The notes under the pieces are model-generated. The model ran no database searches, was not told where the DNA came from, and saw only the letters and a program-made list of their open reading frames with translations. From a phage, in assembly GCA_014687725.1 (NCBI GenBank), contig GCA_014687725.1_4094.1: a stretch of 64,000 nucleotides of DNA; one strand, given 5' to 3'. The position numbers were made by a program, and so were the translations under genes. Positions 7,625-22,555 of this stretch are shown one piece after another (position 1 is the stretch's first letter; every line of letters starts with the position of its first letter).

Positions 7625-8287
7625 ATGATGAAAACAAAATTAGGTTTGTTTTATAAAAATTATTTCGTTAAACAGCGTAAATTTATAAAAAAATATTTCT
7701 CTGGTGAGAAGTCTAGTCCTATAATTTTTAAAAGACCAAGTTATAATACTTACTTAGCTGGTGCTAAACAGTCTAAGAAATTTATTACTCTTTTAAATAA
7801 AAACAAAATTAAAGCTTCTTATGTTGAAACGAGAAGAAACTCATCAATAACTCCTGGTGATTTTATTGAGTACGGATGTTTCAATATTAAGTACAATGAT
7901 AATACATACTTTATGGATATTGATTGTAATACATCCAATCTTTTTAACATTGTAGTAAATCCATTAAAACAATATAATGTTTATGGTGATTCTATTATCA
8001 AATTAATCAAAAACAAAGATAGCTTTGATTTTGAAATAAATGTTTTAGATGATAATTTTGACGAAGTACCAGTAAACCCTGAAATCTGTGATATTTTAAA
8101 CAGTTTAAAAGGTAGTACCTACAATATATCATCTGATTTAATGTTTCAGTACTCATTAATCCATAAAGATATTGAAAAGTATATTGAATGCTCCAAAATT
8201 TTGAATTATCTTTACGATGAATTTAAAAAGAGTTCTAAAATAACTGCATACACTTTGTACAATATTCCTAAAATGGTGAATCTTTGA
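7625..8287 (+). CDS. hypothetical AT-rich protein carrying family-C signature (LMFQYSLIHKD)
   Basis: ATG after AGGAG; motif matches EEYFQxSLVxD family in 54-64 kb. Confidence 0.5.
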   Translation: MMKTKLGLFYKNYFVKQRKFIKKYFSGEKSSPIIFKRPSYNTYLAGAKQSKKFITLLNKNKIKASYVETRRNSSITPGDFIEYGCFNIKYNDNTYFMDIDCNTSNLFNIVVNPLKQYNVYGDSIIKLIKNKDSFDFEINVLDDNFDEVPVNPEICDILNSLKGSTYNISSDLMFQYSLIHKDIEKYIECSKILNYLYDEFKKSSKITAYTLYNIPKMVNL

Positions 8288-9420
8288 CAAATACAGTACT
8301 GGCAACTCCACCGTCTGTAATATATTGTCCAGTACTGTAAATTTGTATACCATCGGTTAAGTAAGTTCTGTATAAAGTTGCTGTAACATATACGTTATTC
8401 ATATTCATCTCTATTGGTAGTACACATTTGGTATAGGCCGACACATCTGTTTGTGTACCTATACCCAATTGACCTGCGTTATCGCCTGTGTTATAACCAG
8501 TTGCGTAAACACCTAATGAAGTTATAATATGATTAGAAAAATATGAATAACCCACACTGCTTCTTATTATATCACCTGGTGCTTGTGTTGTTTGTCTTAA
8601 CGAAATATATGTTTGTGATGTAGAACCATTTGCTAACTGACCAAAGTACTGTCCACCACCATGATATGCAAATAATTTATTAGTACTATTATTACTTGCT
8701 ATAGCAAAAGCGAAGTAACTTGAGTTTGTTGTATAATCTTTCACCGTATAGGTATTAGTTATTTGAGAACATAACGTGTACTTTGAATATAACGTCATGT
8801 CGGTTGTACCTACGCCTGATATTGCACCAGTATAATACAATCTCCCATCGGTTCCAATAAATCCTTGCATAAGAAAATTTGCCAGTATTTTGGATGGTGT
8901 TACTCCAGTAGGTACTGTTCCTTGTACAAATGATGAAAGTGAATCGGTACTTCTACCATTTCCCAGTTGTCCATAACTACCATAACCAGTATTCCATATC
9001 GTGTTGTCTGTACATAATACGCTTAATGCACCTGCACTAACTGCAATTTGTTTTATTGTTTTTCCTAGGGCTGTTATTCTATCAAACACTATCTTTGCAG
9101 AAGCCCACGTAGTAGACTTATCAGTTGATAAACCCAATGATGCACCATTCCCAGCGTACCACATCGTATTATCTTTCTTTTTTATTAAAGTTGACTCATA
9201 CCCGCACCCATATATCTTCTACGTTTGTATTGCATAAAACCCATTGGGTCTGTGTTATAATATTACCTATACCCATTTGCCCAAACTCTTGAGAGCCTCT
9301 ACTGTATAGTGTCCCGTCTGACATAAGGGCAAAAACTGTCGTATCAGATGAAGATATTTTGGTAACAGTAGGGGGTAGGTTCTTTTTTGATGATGTGATA
9401 ATTCTTCCAAAGGGTAGCAT
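8268..9420 (-). pseudogene. frameshifted MLPFGR-family RCC1-like propeller paralog (1/13)
   Basis: N-terminal ORF 9196-9432 (MLPFGRI...DIWVRV*) and C-terminal ORF 8268-9164 join by a 1-nt shift in a GGG run near ~9204-9210 to give DIW-CGYESTLIKKKDNTMWYAG, matching gene 2. Confidence 0.5.
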
Positions 9421-9492
9421 TGTATCCTCCAAATGTAAATCGTTATTATATTTAGGACAAAAAAATGCCAGTACAAGGCACTGGCATAAAAT
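9421..9492 (-). promoter_or_regulatory. intergenic terminator hairpin + TATAAT + GGAGGA SD unit
   Basis: Minus strand: TGCCAGT..ACTGGCA hairpin + T7 run, then TATAAT and GGAGGA. Confidence 0.45.
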
Positions 9493-10662
9493 CTAAGCAG
9501 AAGGCATATCCTTCATTTTAATAAATGAAAATTGTGTACCAGTATTTGTGGTTTGATCAGTAAAATATGAATTACTACCAGCCCAGTACAATTCATTATT
9601 AACTATACAATATATAACAGAACTCGAACTCTGTGAATACACACGACTTATATTTGATGGTTCTACTCCAGTACTGAACTGAACCGAACCCAACTGTGAA
9701 CTTGGTATCACATCAGTTGGTCTACCTAAACCATTAACACCAGCCCCACCACCACATGTATATACCCCAGTACTATCAGTTGATATATTAACATAACCAT
9801 TTCCGGCATTTTCAAATAGTATTTCACTGGGAACAACACCAAATCCAGTAAGATCTATTTTCCTGAATGTAGTGTAAACAGTAGAACCACCAACACCTCT
9901 TCCACCATAATCATTAGAACCAGCCATATAGATACTATATCCAGAACTTCCTAAACATAATAACTGTACGTTGTCATATAATATTTGCATAGATATAACG
10001 TTATCAGGAATACTCAATACCGTAAAAGTAGTTAAAGAAGAACTTCCAATATTACTACCAACCGATGTTCCACATCTGTAGTACTTACCGCCTTTTATAT
10101 AATGGAACGATGAACCGCCTAACTTATGTGCTCCTATTGTACTTACCCCAGTATCTATAAGAATGGGAGATACAACTTTGTTATTAACACCTAACTCAGA
10201 TCTACTGTTCATACCGAACCCATATAAACGACCATCTAACATCAATATTAGTGTACTACCGGAAGTACCCGCTGACGTAAATTCTATATTCTTTATTTGC
10301 GACACGTCAATACCTACAAATAATGAAGTTACTTCAGTCCAGTTAACATATGAACCACTAGCCCCAAAATATCCACCCATGTATAGACCTGCACAATATA
10401 ATTTATTATCAACAGTCTTTATTAATGTACCGGATACACACGCCCAAAAATCATCAACTTCATAGGGTACATGTACCCAACCACCTAATACATCACTAGC
10501 ATCCCCTGTACCTAATTTATAGTTCGAACCAGAACCACGCATGTACATATTCCCTGTACTATAAAGTAATCCGACATGTAATTGACTACCATCCAATTTC
10601 TTTATTTCAGGAAGAGTTGGTTTAATATTTCCGTACTTTAACATTCTTCCAAAAGGTAACAT
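9493..10662 (-). CDS. RCC1-like repeat propeller protein, putative receptor-binding/tail-fibre protein (2/13)
   Basis: Starts MLPFGRMLKYGNI; repeated GxNxxG(Q)LGxG-like motifs; AAGGAG SD. Confidence 0.75.
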   Translation of the reverse strand: MLPFGRMLKYGNIKPTLPEIKKLDGSQLHVGLLYSTGNMYMRGSGSNYKLGTGDASDVLGGWVHVPYEVDDFWACVSGTLIKTVDNKLYCAGLYMGGYFGASGSYVNWTEVTSLFVGIDVSQIKNIEFTSAGTSGSTLILMLDGRLYGFGMNSRSELGVNNKVVSPILIDTGVSTIGAHKLGGSSFHYIKGGKYYRCGTSVGSNIGSSSLTTFTVLSIPDNVISMQILYDNVQLLCLGSSGYSIYMAGSNDYGGRGVGGSTVYTTFRKIDLTGFGVVPSEILFENAGNGYVNISTDSTGVYTCGGGAGVNGLGRPTDVIPSSQLGSVQFSTGVEPSNISRVYSQSSSSVIYCIVNNELYWAGSNSYFTDQTTNTGTQFSFIKMKDMPSA

Positions 10663-21231: not shown

Positions 21232-21304
21232 AAATCCCTCCTTATTCATTATACTATATTTAATACAAAAAAGAAAAGCCAGCATCAAGTACTGGCATAT
21301 CAAA
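21232..21304 (-). promoter_or_regulatory. intergenic terminator + promoter/SD unit
   Basis: Same conserved element. Confidence 0.5.
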
Positions 21305-22453
21305 TCACTGCAAAAATGACATATCGACTTCGGTATAATTAAGAACGTTCTGTCCAGCAATACCTCCCATTACTACAATTGAAGCCCCACAATAATATAA
21401 CTTCGAAGTGTCAGTAAGTATAAGTGAACCAGATGGGGTGCGTACCAAATTACACGAAGTATTAAACGAAGTATATGAAGGGGTATAAGAGTACTGATTA
21501 ATATTATTACCAACACCTAATTGACCAGACGAGTTGCTTCCAGATGCATAAAGTACTTCATCACCTTTAACTATATGTGACGCCATGTTACCAACACAAG
21601 TATATAAACTATAAACTCCTGAACTCAATAATGTTGGAGTTTTGTATTGTATATCTGTAGATGAAGAAGTACCACCTGTGCCAAATTCGTTCCCGTATTG
21701 TGCACCGAACTGTTTACCACATGCGTACAAATTATTATCTGATTTAATAAAAAATGTACTCTGATAACTTACATCAAAATCTATAACATCCGAAGCAATC
21801 ATCGTCACCCCAGTAATAGAAGTTTGATTACCTGTACCTAACTGATAGTAATAGTTAAAACCACAACCCCATAAAGTATTATCTTCTTTTAGGTATATGT
21901 TACCAACTGCCTTTTTAACCGAAGTTATAGTATCTACCCTTTTGAATGTGTTAAAAGAATTAATGTTTGTACCATCACCAAATGATGATAGGTTAGAGTT
22001 ATTGTTAGCTCCACAACAATACAATGTACCATCGTTTGTTATCAAATTTACCTTCATATCATTAAAACTACTCATGTATTTTATATCAGAAACATTAATA
22101 CCACCTGATGTTATCCACGTAGTACATTCCGTCCACAAAGTTTTTCTATCAGTTACACCAGTGAATGCCTTCGTGTTACCAGTGATAAAAACTTTTCCAG
22201 TACCTTTCTCTTCATACAATTGACAATCACTACTGTTATTTTCCAATAGAACTCGTTTAACATTCTCCGCACTAAGAATAAATTTACTCGACGAAACACC
22301 TGTTCCAGTACCCCAATTCGTCGCAGAAGATGCATACAACTTATCAGTATAAGTATCATGAAGATACATGGAATCACTGGAATATATTTTAAAACGTCCA
22401 TCATCACCAGGGGCAATATTCCCGTACTTAATCATTCTAACAAAAGGTAACAT
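21305..22453 (-). CDS. RCC1-like repeat propeller protein, putative receptor-binding protein (12/13)
   Basis: Start set at MLPFVRMIKYGN; motif NSSGQLGVGNN. Confidence 0.75.
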   Translation of the reverse strand: MLPFVRMIKYGNIAPGDDGRFKIYSSDSMYLHDTYTDKLYASSATNWGTGTGVSSSKFILSAENVKRVLLENNSSDCQLYEEKGTGKVFITGNTKAFTGVTDRKTLWTECTTWITSGGINVSDIKYMSSFNDMKVNLITNDGTLYCCGANNNSNLSSFGDGTNINSFNTFKRVDTITSVKKAVGNIYLKEDNTLWGCGFNYYYQLGTGNQTSITGVTMIASDVIDFDVSYQSTFFIKSDNNLYACGKQFGAQYGNEFGTGGTSSSTDIQYKTPTLLSSGVYSLYTCVGNMASHIVKGDEVLYASGSNSSGQLGVGNNINQYSYTPSYTSFNTSCNLVRTPSGSLILTDTSKLYYCGASIVVMGGIAGQNVLNYTEVDMSFLQ

Positions 22454-22555
22454 ATTTCCCTCCTTATTCATTATATCATATTTACCCCATAAAGAAAACC
22501 CTTGACATCCTTTCAGTACTGGTGTACTATAGAAGGAATATAAGGAGAACTACAC
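22454..22555. promoter_or_regulatory. divergent promoter region between minus-strand MLPFGR cluster and plus-strand family-A array
   Basis: Plus strand TTGACA, 17 nt, TACTAT then AAGGAG before 22556; minus strand TATAAT-like box and AAGGAGG. Confidence 0.45.

What the first reader, a model, noticed from the sequence alone, without database searches (positions are those of the whole stretch)
8268..22471. Tandem cassette of 13 paralogs sharing an invariant N-terminal MLPFGRM(L/V)KYGNI module fused to divergent RCC1-like propeller domains
Thirteen consecutive minus-strand genes begin with almost the same 13 residues and then diverge completely. Most C-terminal regions carry repeated GxNxxG(Q/E)LGxG-like motifs (e.g. 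YNTDGQLGF, RNTNGELGQGN, QNSGQLGNG), the hallmark of RCC1/BLIP-II beta-propeller blades. Most are separated by a conserved terminator-promoter-SD unit, so they are individually expressible. A conserved anchor plus hypervariable distal domain is the logic of multi-receptor-binding-protein phages, but an RCC1-like fold at this copy number is not something I recognise as described.
Basis: partly seen in the sequence, partly recalled or inferred. Interest (0 to 1): 0.85.

Follow-up and report, generated by a model that had tools for sequence, protein, structure and literature searches.

The report
Virion-addressing tag on variable binding proteins
A jumbo E. coli phage carries twelve tandem genes whose products share a 12-residue N-terminal tag that, in related phages, marks proteins of unrelated folds found in the virus particle. 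The genes databases label "chromosome condensation regulators" therefore look like interchangeable binding heads carried on the virion.

Summary
There are 12 genes, not 13. Eleven are RCC1-like propellers and one is a glycine-rich tail-fibre-tip fold. Two genes are split by frameshifts. Residues 1-12 (MLPFxRMhKYGN) are 87% identical between paralogs, while the rest is 13-39% identical.

The window is an Asteriusvirus (121Q/PBECO4/phAPEC6/UB group). The RCC1 array and its presence in virions are already published (phAPEC6 2020, CBB 2017), where it was read as DNA condensation.

What I did not find described is the tag itself. Across related genera (CBB, GAP32, XbC2, Yen9-04, Hallingskeid, uncultured 350-380 kb contigs) M[LI]PF...YGN heads RCC1, Kelch, LamG, BNR and glycine-rich proteins, with synonymous codons scrambled.

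Published virion proteomes detect 9 of 11 tagged CBB proteins (p=2e-8), including two encoded outside the array, and 8 of 11 phAPEC6 RCC1-like paralogs. CBB virion peptides include tag residues 7-12, so it is not a cleaved leader.

Best reading: a short anchor tag plus exchangeable binding cargo, shuffled through a repeated about 100-nt hairpin-promoter-SD-tag unit. The docking site and host binding are unproven.

The parts
21305..22453 (-). Tagged gene 1, RCC1-like propeller, 382 aa (MLPFVRMIKYGN). It is 93-98% identical to phAPEC6 gp549 and its 121Q counterpart.
   Evidence: phAPEC6 gp549 detected in virions
20122..21231 (-). Tagged gene 2, RCC1-like propeller, 369 aa (MLPFGRMVKYGN)
   Evidence: 99-100% orthologues in UB, 121Q and phAPEC6
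18902..20050 (-). Tagged gene 3, RCC1-like propeller, 382 aa. It is 68% identical to gene 1. Its 99% orthologue sits at a different array position in 121Q.
17644..18831 (-). Tagged gene 4, RCC1-like propeller, 395 aa (MLPFTRMVKYGN). This is the protein modelled with AF2.
16400..17590 (-). Tagged gene 5, RCC1-like propeller, 396 aa (MLPFARMMNYGN)
15591..16328 (-). Tagged gene 6, not RCC1, 245 aa (MLPFGRMVKYGN). It has TNF-like plus glycine-rich domains, like the receptor-binding part of the Pam3 tail fibre gp24.
14376..15518 (-). Tagged gene 7, RCC1-like propeller, 380 aa. Orthologue of phAPEC6 gp005 (85% identity).
   Evidence: gp005 detected in virions
13130..14305 (-). Tagged gene 8, RCC1-like propeller, 391 aa. 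Orthologue of phAPEC6 gp006 (71% identity); a closely similar protein is JP4_581.
   Evidence: gp006 and JP4_581 in virion MS lists
11934..13121 (-). Tagged gene 9, RCC1-like propeller, 395 aa. It has no hairpin or promoter box; its SD overlaps the stop codon of gene 8.
10673..11852 (-). Tagged gene 10, RCC1-like, split by a frameshift near 11060. The first frame gives 269 aa (11043-11852); the C-terminal blades continue in another frame.
   Evidence: The same 269-aa product is phAPEC6 gp007, which was detected in virions.
9493..10662 (-). Tagged gene 11, RCC1-like propeller, 389 aa. It has no hairpin or promoter box. Orthologue of phAPEC6 gp010 (99.5% identity).
   Evidence: gp010 detected in virions
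8268..9420 (-). Gene 12, RCC1-like, with a degenerate tag (MLPFGRIITSSKK). It is split by a frameshift near 9200; the ORF 8268-9164 is its C-terminal part.
   Evidence: split the same way in UB and JP4
11817..11919 (-). Example of the repeated 5' unit of about 100 nt: hairpin plus T-run (11895-11919), box TATTAAATATAGTATAATGAATAA (11863-11886), AAGGAGG, then 12 tag codons (11817-11852). Near-identical copies precede genes 2-8 and 10. A diverged copy with the hairpin precedes gene 12. Hairpin coordinates: 21278-21296, 20094-20118, 18874-18898, 17634-17658, 16374-16392, 15563-15585, 14351-14369 and 9465-9487. Box coordinates: 21242-21265, 20062-20085, 18842-18865, 17602-17625, 16339-16362, 15530-15553 and 14317-14340.
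   Evidence: 85% mean nucleotide identity over 111 nt

Best explanation
Each gene encodes a two-part virion accessory protein.

The parts. Residues 1-12 (M-L-P-F-x-R-M-h-K-Y-G-N), followed by a short proline-rich linker, form a portable virion-addressing and anchoring tag. The rest is a self-contained beta-rich binding domain. In this phage that domain is a 7-bladed RCC1-like propeller in eleven genes and a TNF-like plus glycine-rich tail-fibre-tip domain in one.

How it works (inferred). The products dock through the tag on a common site of the particle. That site is most likely external, for example at the flexible 'hairy' fibres and their anchor points seen on capsid hexamers and tail-sheath rings of phAPEC6/121Q. 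One virion then displays a mixture of about a dozen different binding heads for reversible adhesion to varied cell-surface structures.

Turnover (inferred). In Asteriusvirus most cassettes carry their own hairpin, a T4-late-like promoter box and an SD. This about 100-nt unit plus the tag codons is repeated almost identically. It supplies homology for gain, loss, replacement and reordering of cassettes, which would make the array the most variable part of otherwise 95-99% identical genomes.

Shown here or in the cited papers: tag conservation at protein level; independence of fold and of genomic location; presence of tagged proteins in virions; retention of tag residues 7-12 in virion protein; the predicted folds; array hypervariability.

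Inferred: that the tag itself is the anchor; the external location; host-surface binding; late timing of expression; recombination through the repeated unit.
For: (1) The tag is under protein-level constraint. In arrays fetched by homology or accession, 33 of 33 annotated genes of GAP32, XbC2, Hallingskeid, Yen9-04 and CBB start M[LI]PF. Across genera the synonymous sites are scrambled: P3 CCA44/CCT13/CCG3/CCC2, Y10 TAC32/TAT30, G11 GGT22/GGG20/GGA17. Position 8 varies conservatively as V/I/L/M. Outside Asteriusvirus the upstream DNA is not conserved.

(2) The tag is fold-independent. Of 55 tagged proteins, 22 are RCC1-like, 10 are LamG/ConA-like, 9 are Kelch, and the rest have no Pfam hit, including the glycine-rich type. 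Only M1, P3, F4, Y10 and N12 are invariant.

(3) The tag predicts virion presence. In CBB, 9 of 11 tagged ORFs are among 55 MS-detected proteins of 554 ORFs (Fisher p=2.4e-8). These include CBB_144, which sits among nrdD/nrdG genes, and CBB_247, which sits beside endonuclease VII; both are encoded far from the array. In phAPEC6, 8 of the 11 RCC1-like paralogues reported by the authors were detected (p=2e-6), and all eight start MLPF. GAP32_001 is reported as an MS-identified virion protein and GAP32_002 is annotated 'virion structural protein'. Three MLPF proteins appear in the JP4 list.

(4) The tag is retained. CBB virion peptides cover residues 7-20 of CBB_536 and 10-20 of CBB_548.

(5) The tag is disordered in both AF2 models and is not part of either fold.

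(7) The cargo is shared between lineages while the tag is lineage-specific. Glycine-rich and LamG-like homologues in about 150-kb Vequintavirinae start M-x-E-M/L-L instead.

(8) The array is hypervariable. No record of 37 covers at least 80% of it (best 67%). By contrast, 22 of 36 records cover the 54-64 kb flank at 95-99% identity, and the adjacent ORF is 95% or more identical in 20 of 35 isolates. Slots are replaced by paralogues under 35% identical, and one cassette is relocated in 121Q.

(9) Composition argues against DNA binding: K+R is about 6%, pI is 5.3-8.8, and S+T+N+G is about 40%.
Against: No experiment shows that the tag is necessary or sufficient for incorporation, or where tagged proteins sit. 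The docking partner is unknown.

The MS support for individual Asteriusvirus paralogues is thin: 1-5 peptides in phAPEC6, and 1 peptide for each of the two JP4 proteins whose rows I read.

The phAPEC6 and 121Q particles contain an inner body (bubblegrams), and the phAPEC6 authors suggested that the RCC1-like proteins belong to it.

Globular proteins of 25-43 kDa cannot by themselves be the long 'hairs'.

No peptide containing residues 1-6 was seen, so trimming of the first residues is not excluded.

The invariance of tag positions in pattern-fetched loci is partly built in by the search pattern.

The promoter box has no canonical -35 element, and its timing is unverified.

RaK2 and K64-1 were not exhaustively checked for the tag.
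Confidence: 0.6

Rival explanations
1. The tag is a capsid-targeting signal like the T4 CTS. On this reading the proteins are packaged inside the head and either help build the inner body or are ejected into the cell as a variable set of host-protein binders or anti-defence effectors.
For: A short conserved N-terminal peptide on otherwise unrelated virion proteins, encoded partly at scattered loci, is the form of the T4 internal-protein CTS (own knowledge: Mullaney and Black 1996; polymorphic IP loci in T-even phages). phAPEC6 and 121Q have an inner body, and the phAPEC6 authors proposed the RCC1-like proteins for it. Propellers and Kelch domains are good protein-binding scaffolds. Variability between isolates also fits anti-defence cargo.
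Against: Tag residues 7-12 persist in virion peptides, whereas the T4 CTS is removed. There is no conserved Glu or protease-type cleavage motif after the tag. The proteins are neutral and poor in charged residues, not basic. A conserved inner body is unlikely to be built from non-homologous folds in sister genera (RCC1 in 121Q; Kelch and LamG in CBB, which lacks RCC1). One cargo is a tail-fibre receptor-binding fold.
Confidence: 0.17
2. The database annotation is right: these are regulators of chromosome condensation, or DNA-condensing proteins, acting on phage or host DNA.
For: There is sequence and fold similarity to eukaryotic RCC1. The annotation is used in GenBank records and papers.
Against: The RCC1 fold is a generic 7-bladed scaffold. 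The best structural matches are UVR8, RPGR and HERC2, not RCC1 itself. The proteins show no basic character. The same tag and the same array slots hold LamG, Kelch, BNR and glycine-rich fibre-tip proteins. CBB has tagged virion proteins but no RCC1 homologue.
Confidence: 0.03
3. The conserved 5' end is a nucleic-acid feature only: a promoter, 5'UTR and translation-initiation region homogenised by gene conversion. On this reading the peptide has no function of its own.
For: Within the window and 121Q the tag codons are almost identical (TTA CCT TTT AGA ATG AAG TAC GGR AAT), and they are contiguous with an about 75-nt conserved upstream unit.
Against: In other genera the upstream DNA is not conserved and the genes are packed about 10 nt apart, yet the peptide is kept with scrambled synonymous codons. 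Substitutions at position 8 are conservative (V/I/L/M). The peptide is also kept on genes at unrelated loci, CBB_144 and CBB_247.
Confidence: 0.04
4. The tag serves another step, such as recognition by an assembly chaperone, export or turnover. Virion detection would then reflect sticky, abundant lectin-like late proteins co-purifying with particles.
For: Peptide counts are low in phAPEC6 and JP4. Lectin-like folds may adhere non-specifically. No structure shows them on the particle.
Against: Enrichment is seen in independent virion proteomes of different phages: CBB, phAPEC6 and GAP32, plus weaker JP4 data. Coverage of several CBB tagged proteins is high, at 25-51%. Proteins encoded at unrelated loci were also detected. 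Two tagged Kelch proteins, CBB_550 and CBB_554, were not detected, so detection is not universal stickiness.
Confidence: 0.1

Closest known systems
RCC1-like 'DNA condensation proteins' of Rak2-like jumbo phages (phAPEC6 gp001-010/549-551; 121Q_234-248; PBECO4; GAP32_001), PHROG 4219
   Same: This is the same gene family and the same locus. The window's genes are 71-100% identical to several of them. The literature already records the multi-copy array and MS detection in virions.
   Different: The papers interpret them as DNA-condensing or inner-body candidates, or leave them unassigned. None of the papers I read or searched mentions the shared N-terminal peptide, its presence on non-RCC1 virion proteins, or the repeated 5' unit.
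T4 capsid targeting sequence (CTS) of internal proteins IPI/II/III and Alt (own knowledge)
   Same: An N-terminal peptide of about 10 residues is shared by otherwise unrelated proteins, directs them into the particle, and sits on polymorphic cassettes.
   Different: There is no sequence similarity. The T4 CTS is cleaved after Glu by the prohead protease, whereas here tag residues 7-12 remain in virion protein. The cargo here consists of 25-43 kDa neutral beta-rich binding domains, one of them a tail-fibre tip.
Adenovirus fibre N-terminal penton-base-binding motif (FNPVYPY) (own knowledge)
   Same: A short conserved N-terminal peptide anchors a variable receptor-binding head to a fixed capsid site. 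Some serotypes load two different fibres through the same motif.
   Different: It is a eukaryotic virus with a trimeric shaft and knob and one or two fibre genes. Here about 12 or more cargo genes of several folds have no shaft, and the docking site is unknown.
Multi-RBP phages with N-terminal adaptor domains (CBA120 TSP1-4, G7C gp63.1/gp66, K64-1/RaK2/PhiKp24 branched fibres) (own knowledge)
   Same: A conserved N-terminal attachment part is joined to a divergent distal binding or enzymatic part. Several RBPs sit on each virion, and their genes are clustered.
   Different: Those anchors are folded domains of roughly 100 residues or more that form branched trimeric assemblies. Here the conserved part is 12 residues, predicted disordered, and the cargo is propeller, lectin or glycine-rich domains rather than beta-helix tailspikes.
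Cyanophage Pam3 tail fibre gp24 (PDB 7YPX) and the related S16 gp38 adhesin type
   Different: There is no detectable sequence similarity. The baseplate-docking helical bundle of Pam3 gp24 is absent and the MLPF tag takes its place.
PeSL (promoter-early stem-loop) regulatory cassettes that mediate modular shuffling in T4-type phages (Arbiol et al. 2010; own knowledge)
   Same: A repeated stem-loop-plus-promoter unit flanks each ORF of a hyperplastic region and could drive recombinational shuffling.
   Different: The box here lacks a sigma-70 -35 element and looks more like the ATAAATA late motif reported for CBB and GAP32. The repeat extends 36 nt into the coding sequence. It is restricted to one gene family.

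Membership tests
RCC1/BLIP-II-like seven-bladed beta-propeller superfamily | Repeated RCC1-type sequence repeats recognised by curated profiles | tested here: met
   PF13540 and/or PF00415 score above their gathering cut-offs in 8 of the 9 intact RCC1-type genes tested (gene 11 falls just below). PF25390 gives E 1e-15 to 1e-28 but stays below its 150-bit cut-off. PHROG 4219 gives E 1e-50 to 1e-115.
RCC1/BLIP-II-like seven-bladed beta-propeller superfamily | Seven four-stranded blades forming a closed propeller | tested here: met
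   AF2 model of gene 4: pLDDT 78, pTM 0.81, about 29 strands. Foldseek to UVR8, RPGR, HERC2-RLD and RCC1: E 1e-22 to 1e-14, TM 0.6-0.8. This is a prediction, not a solved structure, and only one paralogue was modelled.
Eukaryotic RCC1 proper (Ran-GEF / chromatin-bound regulator of chromosome condensation) | Ran binding and nucleotide exchange; nucleosome or DNA binding | not testable with these tools
   No Ran exists in bacteria. The proteins have neutral pI and about 6% K+R. The annotation rests on fold similarity only.
Phage receptor-binding proteins with an N-terminal anchor domain (tail fibres and tailspikes) | Protein is a component of the virion | tested here: met
   This rests on published MS of relatives, not of this phage: phAPEC6 gp003/005/006/007/009/010/549/551, GAP32_001 and three JP4 proteins.
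Phage receptor-binding proteins with an N-terminal anchor domain (tail fibres and tailspikes) | Folded N-terminal adaptor domain and a trimeric shaft | tested here: not met
   The conserved part is 12 residues and has low confidence in both models (pLDDT below 50 to 56). No coiled-coil or beta-helix shaft is predicted, and the propeller starts at about residue 20.
Phage receptor-binding proteins with an N-terminal anchor domain (tail fibres and tailspikes) | Binds a host surface receptor and determines adsorption or host range | not testable with these tools
   Indirect evidence only: the array is hypervariable between isolates, and the cargo folds are lectin or fibre-tip types.
T4-type capsid targeting sequence (CTS) cargo | Short conserved N-terminal peptide shared by unrelated virion proteins | tested here: met
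T4-type capsid targeting sequence (CTS) cargo | Peptide removed by the prohead protease at a conserved site (after Glu) in mature particles | tested here: not met
   CBB virion peptides include tag residues 7-12. There is no conserved Glu or cleavage motif after the tag. This was tested in CBB, not in an Asteriusvirus, and residues 1-6 were not observed.
Glycine-rich domain proteins (PF21722) / Pam3 gp24-type fibre tip (gene 15591-16328 only) | TNF-like beta-sandwich plus stacked glycine-rich loops | tested here: met
PeSL-type mobile regulatory cassettes | Repeated stem-loop followed by a sigma-70 early promoter flanking ORFs of a hyperplastic region | tested here: inconclusive
   The stem-loop and an AT-rich box containing TATAAT are repeated 8-9 times. 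No -35 element is present, and sigma-70-type sites are not enriched (89 against 75 expected). Cassette shuffling between isolates is observed, but the breakpoints were not mapped.

The most novel reading that the evidence does not exclude
Large myoviruses may use short, lineage-specific N-terminal 'address tags' as a general plug-in system. The candidates are M[LI]PF...YGN in the CBB/GAP32/121Q/Yen9-04 jumbo clade and a different M-x-E-M/L-L... tag in about 150-kb Vequintavirinae. On this reading any compact binding domain (RCC1, Kelch, LamG, BNR or TNF-plus-glycine-rich) that acquires the roughly 12-residue tag is mounted on a common virion site. Cargo domains move between phage lineages by swapping tags, and a single particle displays a dozen or more different adhesins. 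The tag would then be a natural, minimal phage-display handle. It would also mean that 10-15 'hypothetical' or 'chromosome condensation' genes per jumbo genome are host-range hardware.
Probability: 0.4. Interest if true: 0.8.

Novelty: new variant of a known kind. Interest (0 to 1): 0.62.

Why it matters
The reading reassigns a conspicuous, mis-annotated gene family in a clinically used group of coliphages. The 'regulators of chromosome condensation', present at 10-15 copies per genome, become virion-borne binding modules.

It identifies a 12-residue sequence that predicts virion incorporation across folds, loci and genera. It also gives concrete candidates for the unexplained 'hairy' appendages of 121Q, phAPEC6 and CBB.

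If the tag is sufficient for loading, it is a very small handle for displaying foreign domains on jumbo phages. It would also be a simple genomic marker for host-range cassettes in metagenomic jumbo-phage contigs. The repeated hairpin-promoter-tag unit offers a testable mechanism for rapid turnover of the adhesin repertoire.

Tried and rejected
- Stop-codon recoding as the reason for the ORF-poor 22.5-54 kb region: no single reassignment restores long ORFs. Relatives annotate about 63 small genes there.
- tRNAs: none found.
- The strict motif pattern in IMG/VR found only 121Q, so a degenerate pattern was needed. Its single hits in small contigs look like chance or unrelated families.
- The word-indexed protein search with one paralogue returned only close orthologues and distant bacterial RCC1 proteins, not the other paralogues.
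- Sigma-70 promoter scan: not enriched.
- Searching papers for the motif strings: nothing found.
- phAPEC6 supplements: not held. The Sharanji paper does not mention these proteins.
- Using the adjacent ORF (7625-8287) to find the syntenic site in RaK2: the ORF is restricted to Asteriusvirus. RaK2 and K64-1 therefore remain unchecked.
- The idea that the tag is the propeller's 'velcro' strand: rejected. It is disordered in the model, and it also heads non-propeller proteins.

Full report
**What is in the sequence**

The interval holds a head-to-tail run of minus-strand genes. A six-frame scan finds LPF.RM..YGN eleven times in the 64-kb window. Every occurrence is at the start of one of these genes, with the M of MLPF at 22453, 21231, 20050, 18831, 17590, 16328, 15518, 14305, 13121, 11852 and 10662. 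A twelfth gene starts at 9420 with a decayed version, MLPFGRIITSSKK. So there are 12 genes, not 13.

Two genes are interrupted by frameshifts: 11852 to 10673, and 9420 to 8268. The same splits are annotated in phages UB, JP4 and phAPEC6, so they are not private sequencing errors.

Residues 1-12 are on average 87% identical between genes. The remainder is 13-39% identical between RCC1 paralogs, apart from one pair at 68%.

Nine of the ten intact genes hit Pfam RCC1, RCC1_2 or RCC1-like-domain profiles and PHROG 4219. An AlphaFold2 model of gene 4 (pLDDT 78, pTM 0.81) superposes on UVR8, RPGR, HERC2 and RCC1 propellers at TM 0.6-0.8. The gene at 16328 is different. It is glycine-rich, has no Pfam hit and belongs to PHROG 4474.

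**The intergenic unit**

Eight genes are preceded by a nearly identical unit:
- the hairpin GCCAGTAC-loop-GTACTGGC plus a T-run;
- the 24-nt box TATTAAATATAGTATAATGAATAA;
- AAGGAGG;
- then ATG TTA CCT TTT ... AAT.

A diverged copy that keeps the hairpin precedes gene 12, and gene 1 has the box without a hairpin. Box and hairpin occur nowhere else in the window at this stringency, apart from one 3-mismatch hairpin-like site at 30312. Genes 13121 and 10662 lack the unit and sit about 10 nt after the upstream stop codon.

The box has no sigma-70 -35 element, and sigma-70-type sites are not enriched in the region. It resembles the ATAAATA late motif proposed for CBB and GAP32 structural genes. Late expression is therefore an inference.

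**Where the window comes from and what is already known**

The region matches Asteriusvirus jumbo coliphages (UB, JP4, 121Q, PBECO4, phAPEC6, G17 and others) at 84-98% identity, but only in patches. One paralogue is 100% identical at protein level to a UB protein.

The array is not new to the literature. The phAPEC6 paper remarks on 'eleven RCC1-like proteins' and suggests a role in the inner body or in DNA ordering. The CBB paper lists 121Q_234-248 and PBECO4 copies. Later genome papers keep the label 'chromosome condensation regulator'.

phAPEC6 virion mass spectrometry detected gp003, 005, 006, 007, 009, 010, 549 and 551. I checked that each starts MLPF[GA]RM.KYGN and that several are orthologues of window genes.

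**The tag is independent of fold**

Relatives of the RCC1 family occur across the Rak2-like CBB/GAP32/Yen9-04 clade. In the arrays of GAP32, XbC2, Hallingskeid, Yen9-04 and CBB, all 33 annotated genes begin M[LI]PF, usually continuing x-[RIQ]-h-x-x-Y-G-N. These include proteins annotated LamG, BNR, Kelch and 'virion structural protein'.

A degenerate DNA pattern scan of IMG/VR found multi-copy hits only in 350-380 kb contigs and one 109-kb contig. Of 55 such proteins, 22 are RCC1-like, 10 are LamG/ConA-like, 9 are Kelch and the rest have no Pfam hit. Only M1, P3, F4, Y10 and N12 are invariant.

Across genera the synonymous positions are scrambled, for example Y10 TAC32/TAT30 and G11 GGT22/GGG20/GGA17, and the upstream DNA is unrelated. 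Within Asteriusvirus the codons are nearly identical and contiguous with the repeated upstream unit. I read this as protein-level selection on the peptide, with concerted evolution of the whole 5' unit added in Asteriusvirus.

One caveat applies. The invariant positions in pattern-fetched loci are partly imposed by the pattern. The arrays fetched by homology or accession give independent support.

**The tag predicts virion presence and is retained**

In CBB the pattern marks 11 ORFs. Nine of them (CBB_144, 247, 536, 537, 548, 549, 551, 552, 553) are among the 55 proteins found by virion MS out of 554 ORFs (Fisher p=2.4e-8). CBB_144 lies among anaerobic ribonucleotide reductase genes, and CBB_247 lies next to endonuclease VII. 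So the association does not depend on genomic context.

All six 'structural proteins absent from GAP32', which the CBB authors considered candidates for the tail whiskers, carry the tag.

The CBB peptide-level supplement contains LFEYANVIIPPNYK (CBB_536 residues 7-20, preceded by R) and YANVIVEYATK (CBB_548 residues 10-20). At least residues 7-12 of the tag are therefore present in virion protein. No peptide with residues 1-6 was seen; MLPFxR is only six residues long.

GAP32_001 is a reported virion protein and GAP32_002 is annotated as one. JP4, a close relative of the window, lists three MLPF proteins; the two rows I read had one peptide each.

**The cargo looks external**

[quoted passage not shown] In the window protein the 12-residue tag occupies the place of that bundle.

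Homologues of the glycine-rich and LamG-like cargo in about 150-kb Vequintavirinae (PVP-SE1 gp19, CR3 gp255, 4MG gp182 and gp170) lack MLPF and start M-x-E-M/L-L.... The cargo thus appears to be shared between lineages while the tag is lineage-specific.

The paralogues are neutral, poor in charged residues and rich in S, T, N and G. This is unlike DNA-condensing proteins.

**Hypervariability**

No phage record covers 80% of the array; the best covers 67%. By contrast, 22 of 36 records cover the 54-64 kb flank at 95-99% identity, and the adjacent ORF 7625-8287 is at least 95% identical in 20 of 35 isolates.

Cassette-by-cassette comparison shows 99-100% orthologues interleaved with 71-89% orthologues and with slots occupied by paralogues under 35% identical. 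One cassette (20050) sits at a different position in 121Q. This is consistent with recombination through the repeated unit, though I did not map breakpoints.

**Interpretation and rivals**

The best-supported reading (confidence about 0.6) is a short N-terminal anchor tag plus exchangeable binding cargo displayed on the particle. Within that, I put about 0.8 on 'the tag mediates virion incorporation'.

The main rival is a T4-CTS-like targeting of internal or ejected proteins (about 0.17). Evidence against it:
- the tag is retained;
- there is no cleavage motif;
- the cargo includes a fibre-tip fold;
- sister genera use non-homologous cargo in the same slots.

phAPEC6 and 121Q do have an inner body, however, and no localisation data exist.

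I consider three further readings unlikely: the literal 'chromosome condensation' annotation, a purely nucleic-acid explanation of the conservation, and co-purifying sticky proteins. The reasons are given under rivals.

**Novelty**

The RCC1 array and its virion association are published. I found no description of the fold-independent tag, its statistical link to virion incorporation, its retention in virions, the fibre-tip nature of the glycine-rich member, or the repeated 5' unit. That search is limited to open-access text. I classify the finding as a new variant of the known 'conserved anchor plus variable receptor-binding part' design.

Noticed in passing
window 22500-54000: There is almost no ORF of 150 aa or more on either strand, under the standard code or with any one stop codon reassigned. 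Relatives annotate about 63 small hypothetical genes in the first 22 kb, together with a GNAT acetyltransferase, 'spackle' and a DksA-like protein. This is a dense early-type region of small genes, not non-coding DNA.
   Followed up: partly
window 4803-7583 (+): Eight tandem ORFs of 104-141 aa encode small proteins with several hydrophobic, membrane-spanning-type segments. The first two are 58% identical. Comparable blocks of small 'putative membrane proteins' lie next to the tagged array in CBB, XbC2, Yen9-04 and Hallingskeid. The conserved synteny is unexplained.
   Followed up: partly
L069 6995-7645 (CR3 gp255); L070 6953-7603 and 11936-12589 (4MG gp182, gp170); P0018-P0048, P0074 (PVP-SE1 gp19): In about 150-kb Vequintavirinae, homologues of the LamG-like and glycine-rich cargo lack MLPF. 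They begin with a different shared N-terminus (MNEMLMLG, MEEMLLVG, MLEAMLTAG, MLELLAVSG, MFEMMLATS). This may be a second, lineage-specific virion tag.
   Followed up: partly
window 10673-11852 and 8268-9420; L067 10640-11449 (phAPEC6 gp007): The two frameshift-split paralogues are split the same way in several isolates. The 269-aa N-terminal product of the first (a partial propeller) was detected in phAPEC6 virions with 3 peptides and 17.5% coverage. It could be a tolerated truncation or a programmed frameshift.
   Followed up: partly
L067 about 7325 (phAPEC6): phAPEC6 carries the tagged glycine-rich gene (MLPFGRMVKYGNKIEYKPDGEQ...), but it is not annotated. The annotated gp004 (7716-8018) translates to a low-complexity V/L-rich sequence like the overlapping alternative-frame ORF in the window (15632-15940). 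The protein could not have been found in that study's MS search.
   Followed up: no
P0015 (metagenome contig of 26.7 kb): This is a natural variant of the glycine-rich protein in which exactly the tag is missing (MNKGG-NKIEYKP...). The upstream in-frame ATG of the promoter/SD region is fused to residue 12.
   Followed up: no
L071 19280-20843 (Salmonella phage PVP-SE1): A 604-aa protein combines RCC1-like repeats with a Big_2 Ig-like domain. This is another case of RCC1-like repeats joined to an Ig-like domain in a phage protein of unknown location.
   Followed up: no
window 8268-8287: The convergent ORF 7625-8287 (+) overlaps the 3' end of gene 12 (-) by 20 nt. This flank ORF is restricted to Asteriusvirus and highly conserved.
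   Followed up: no
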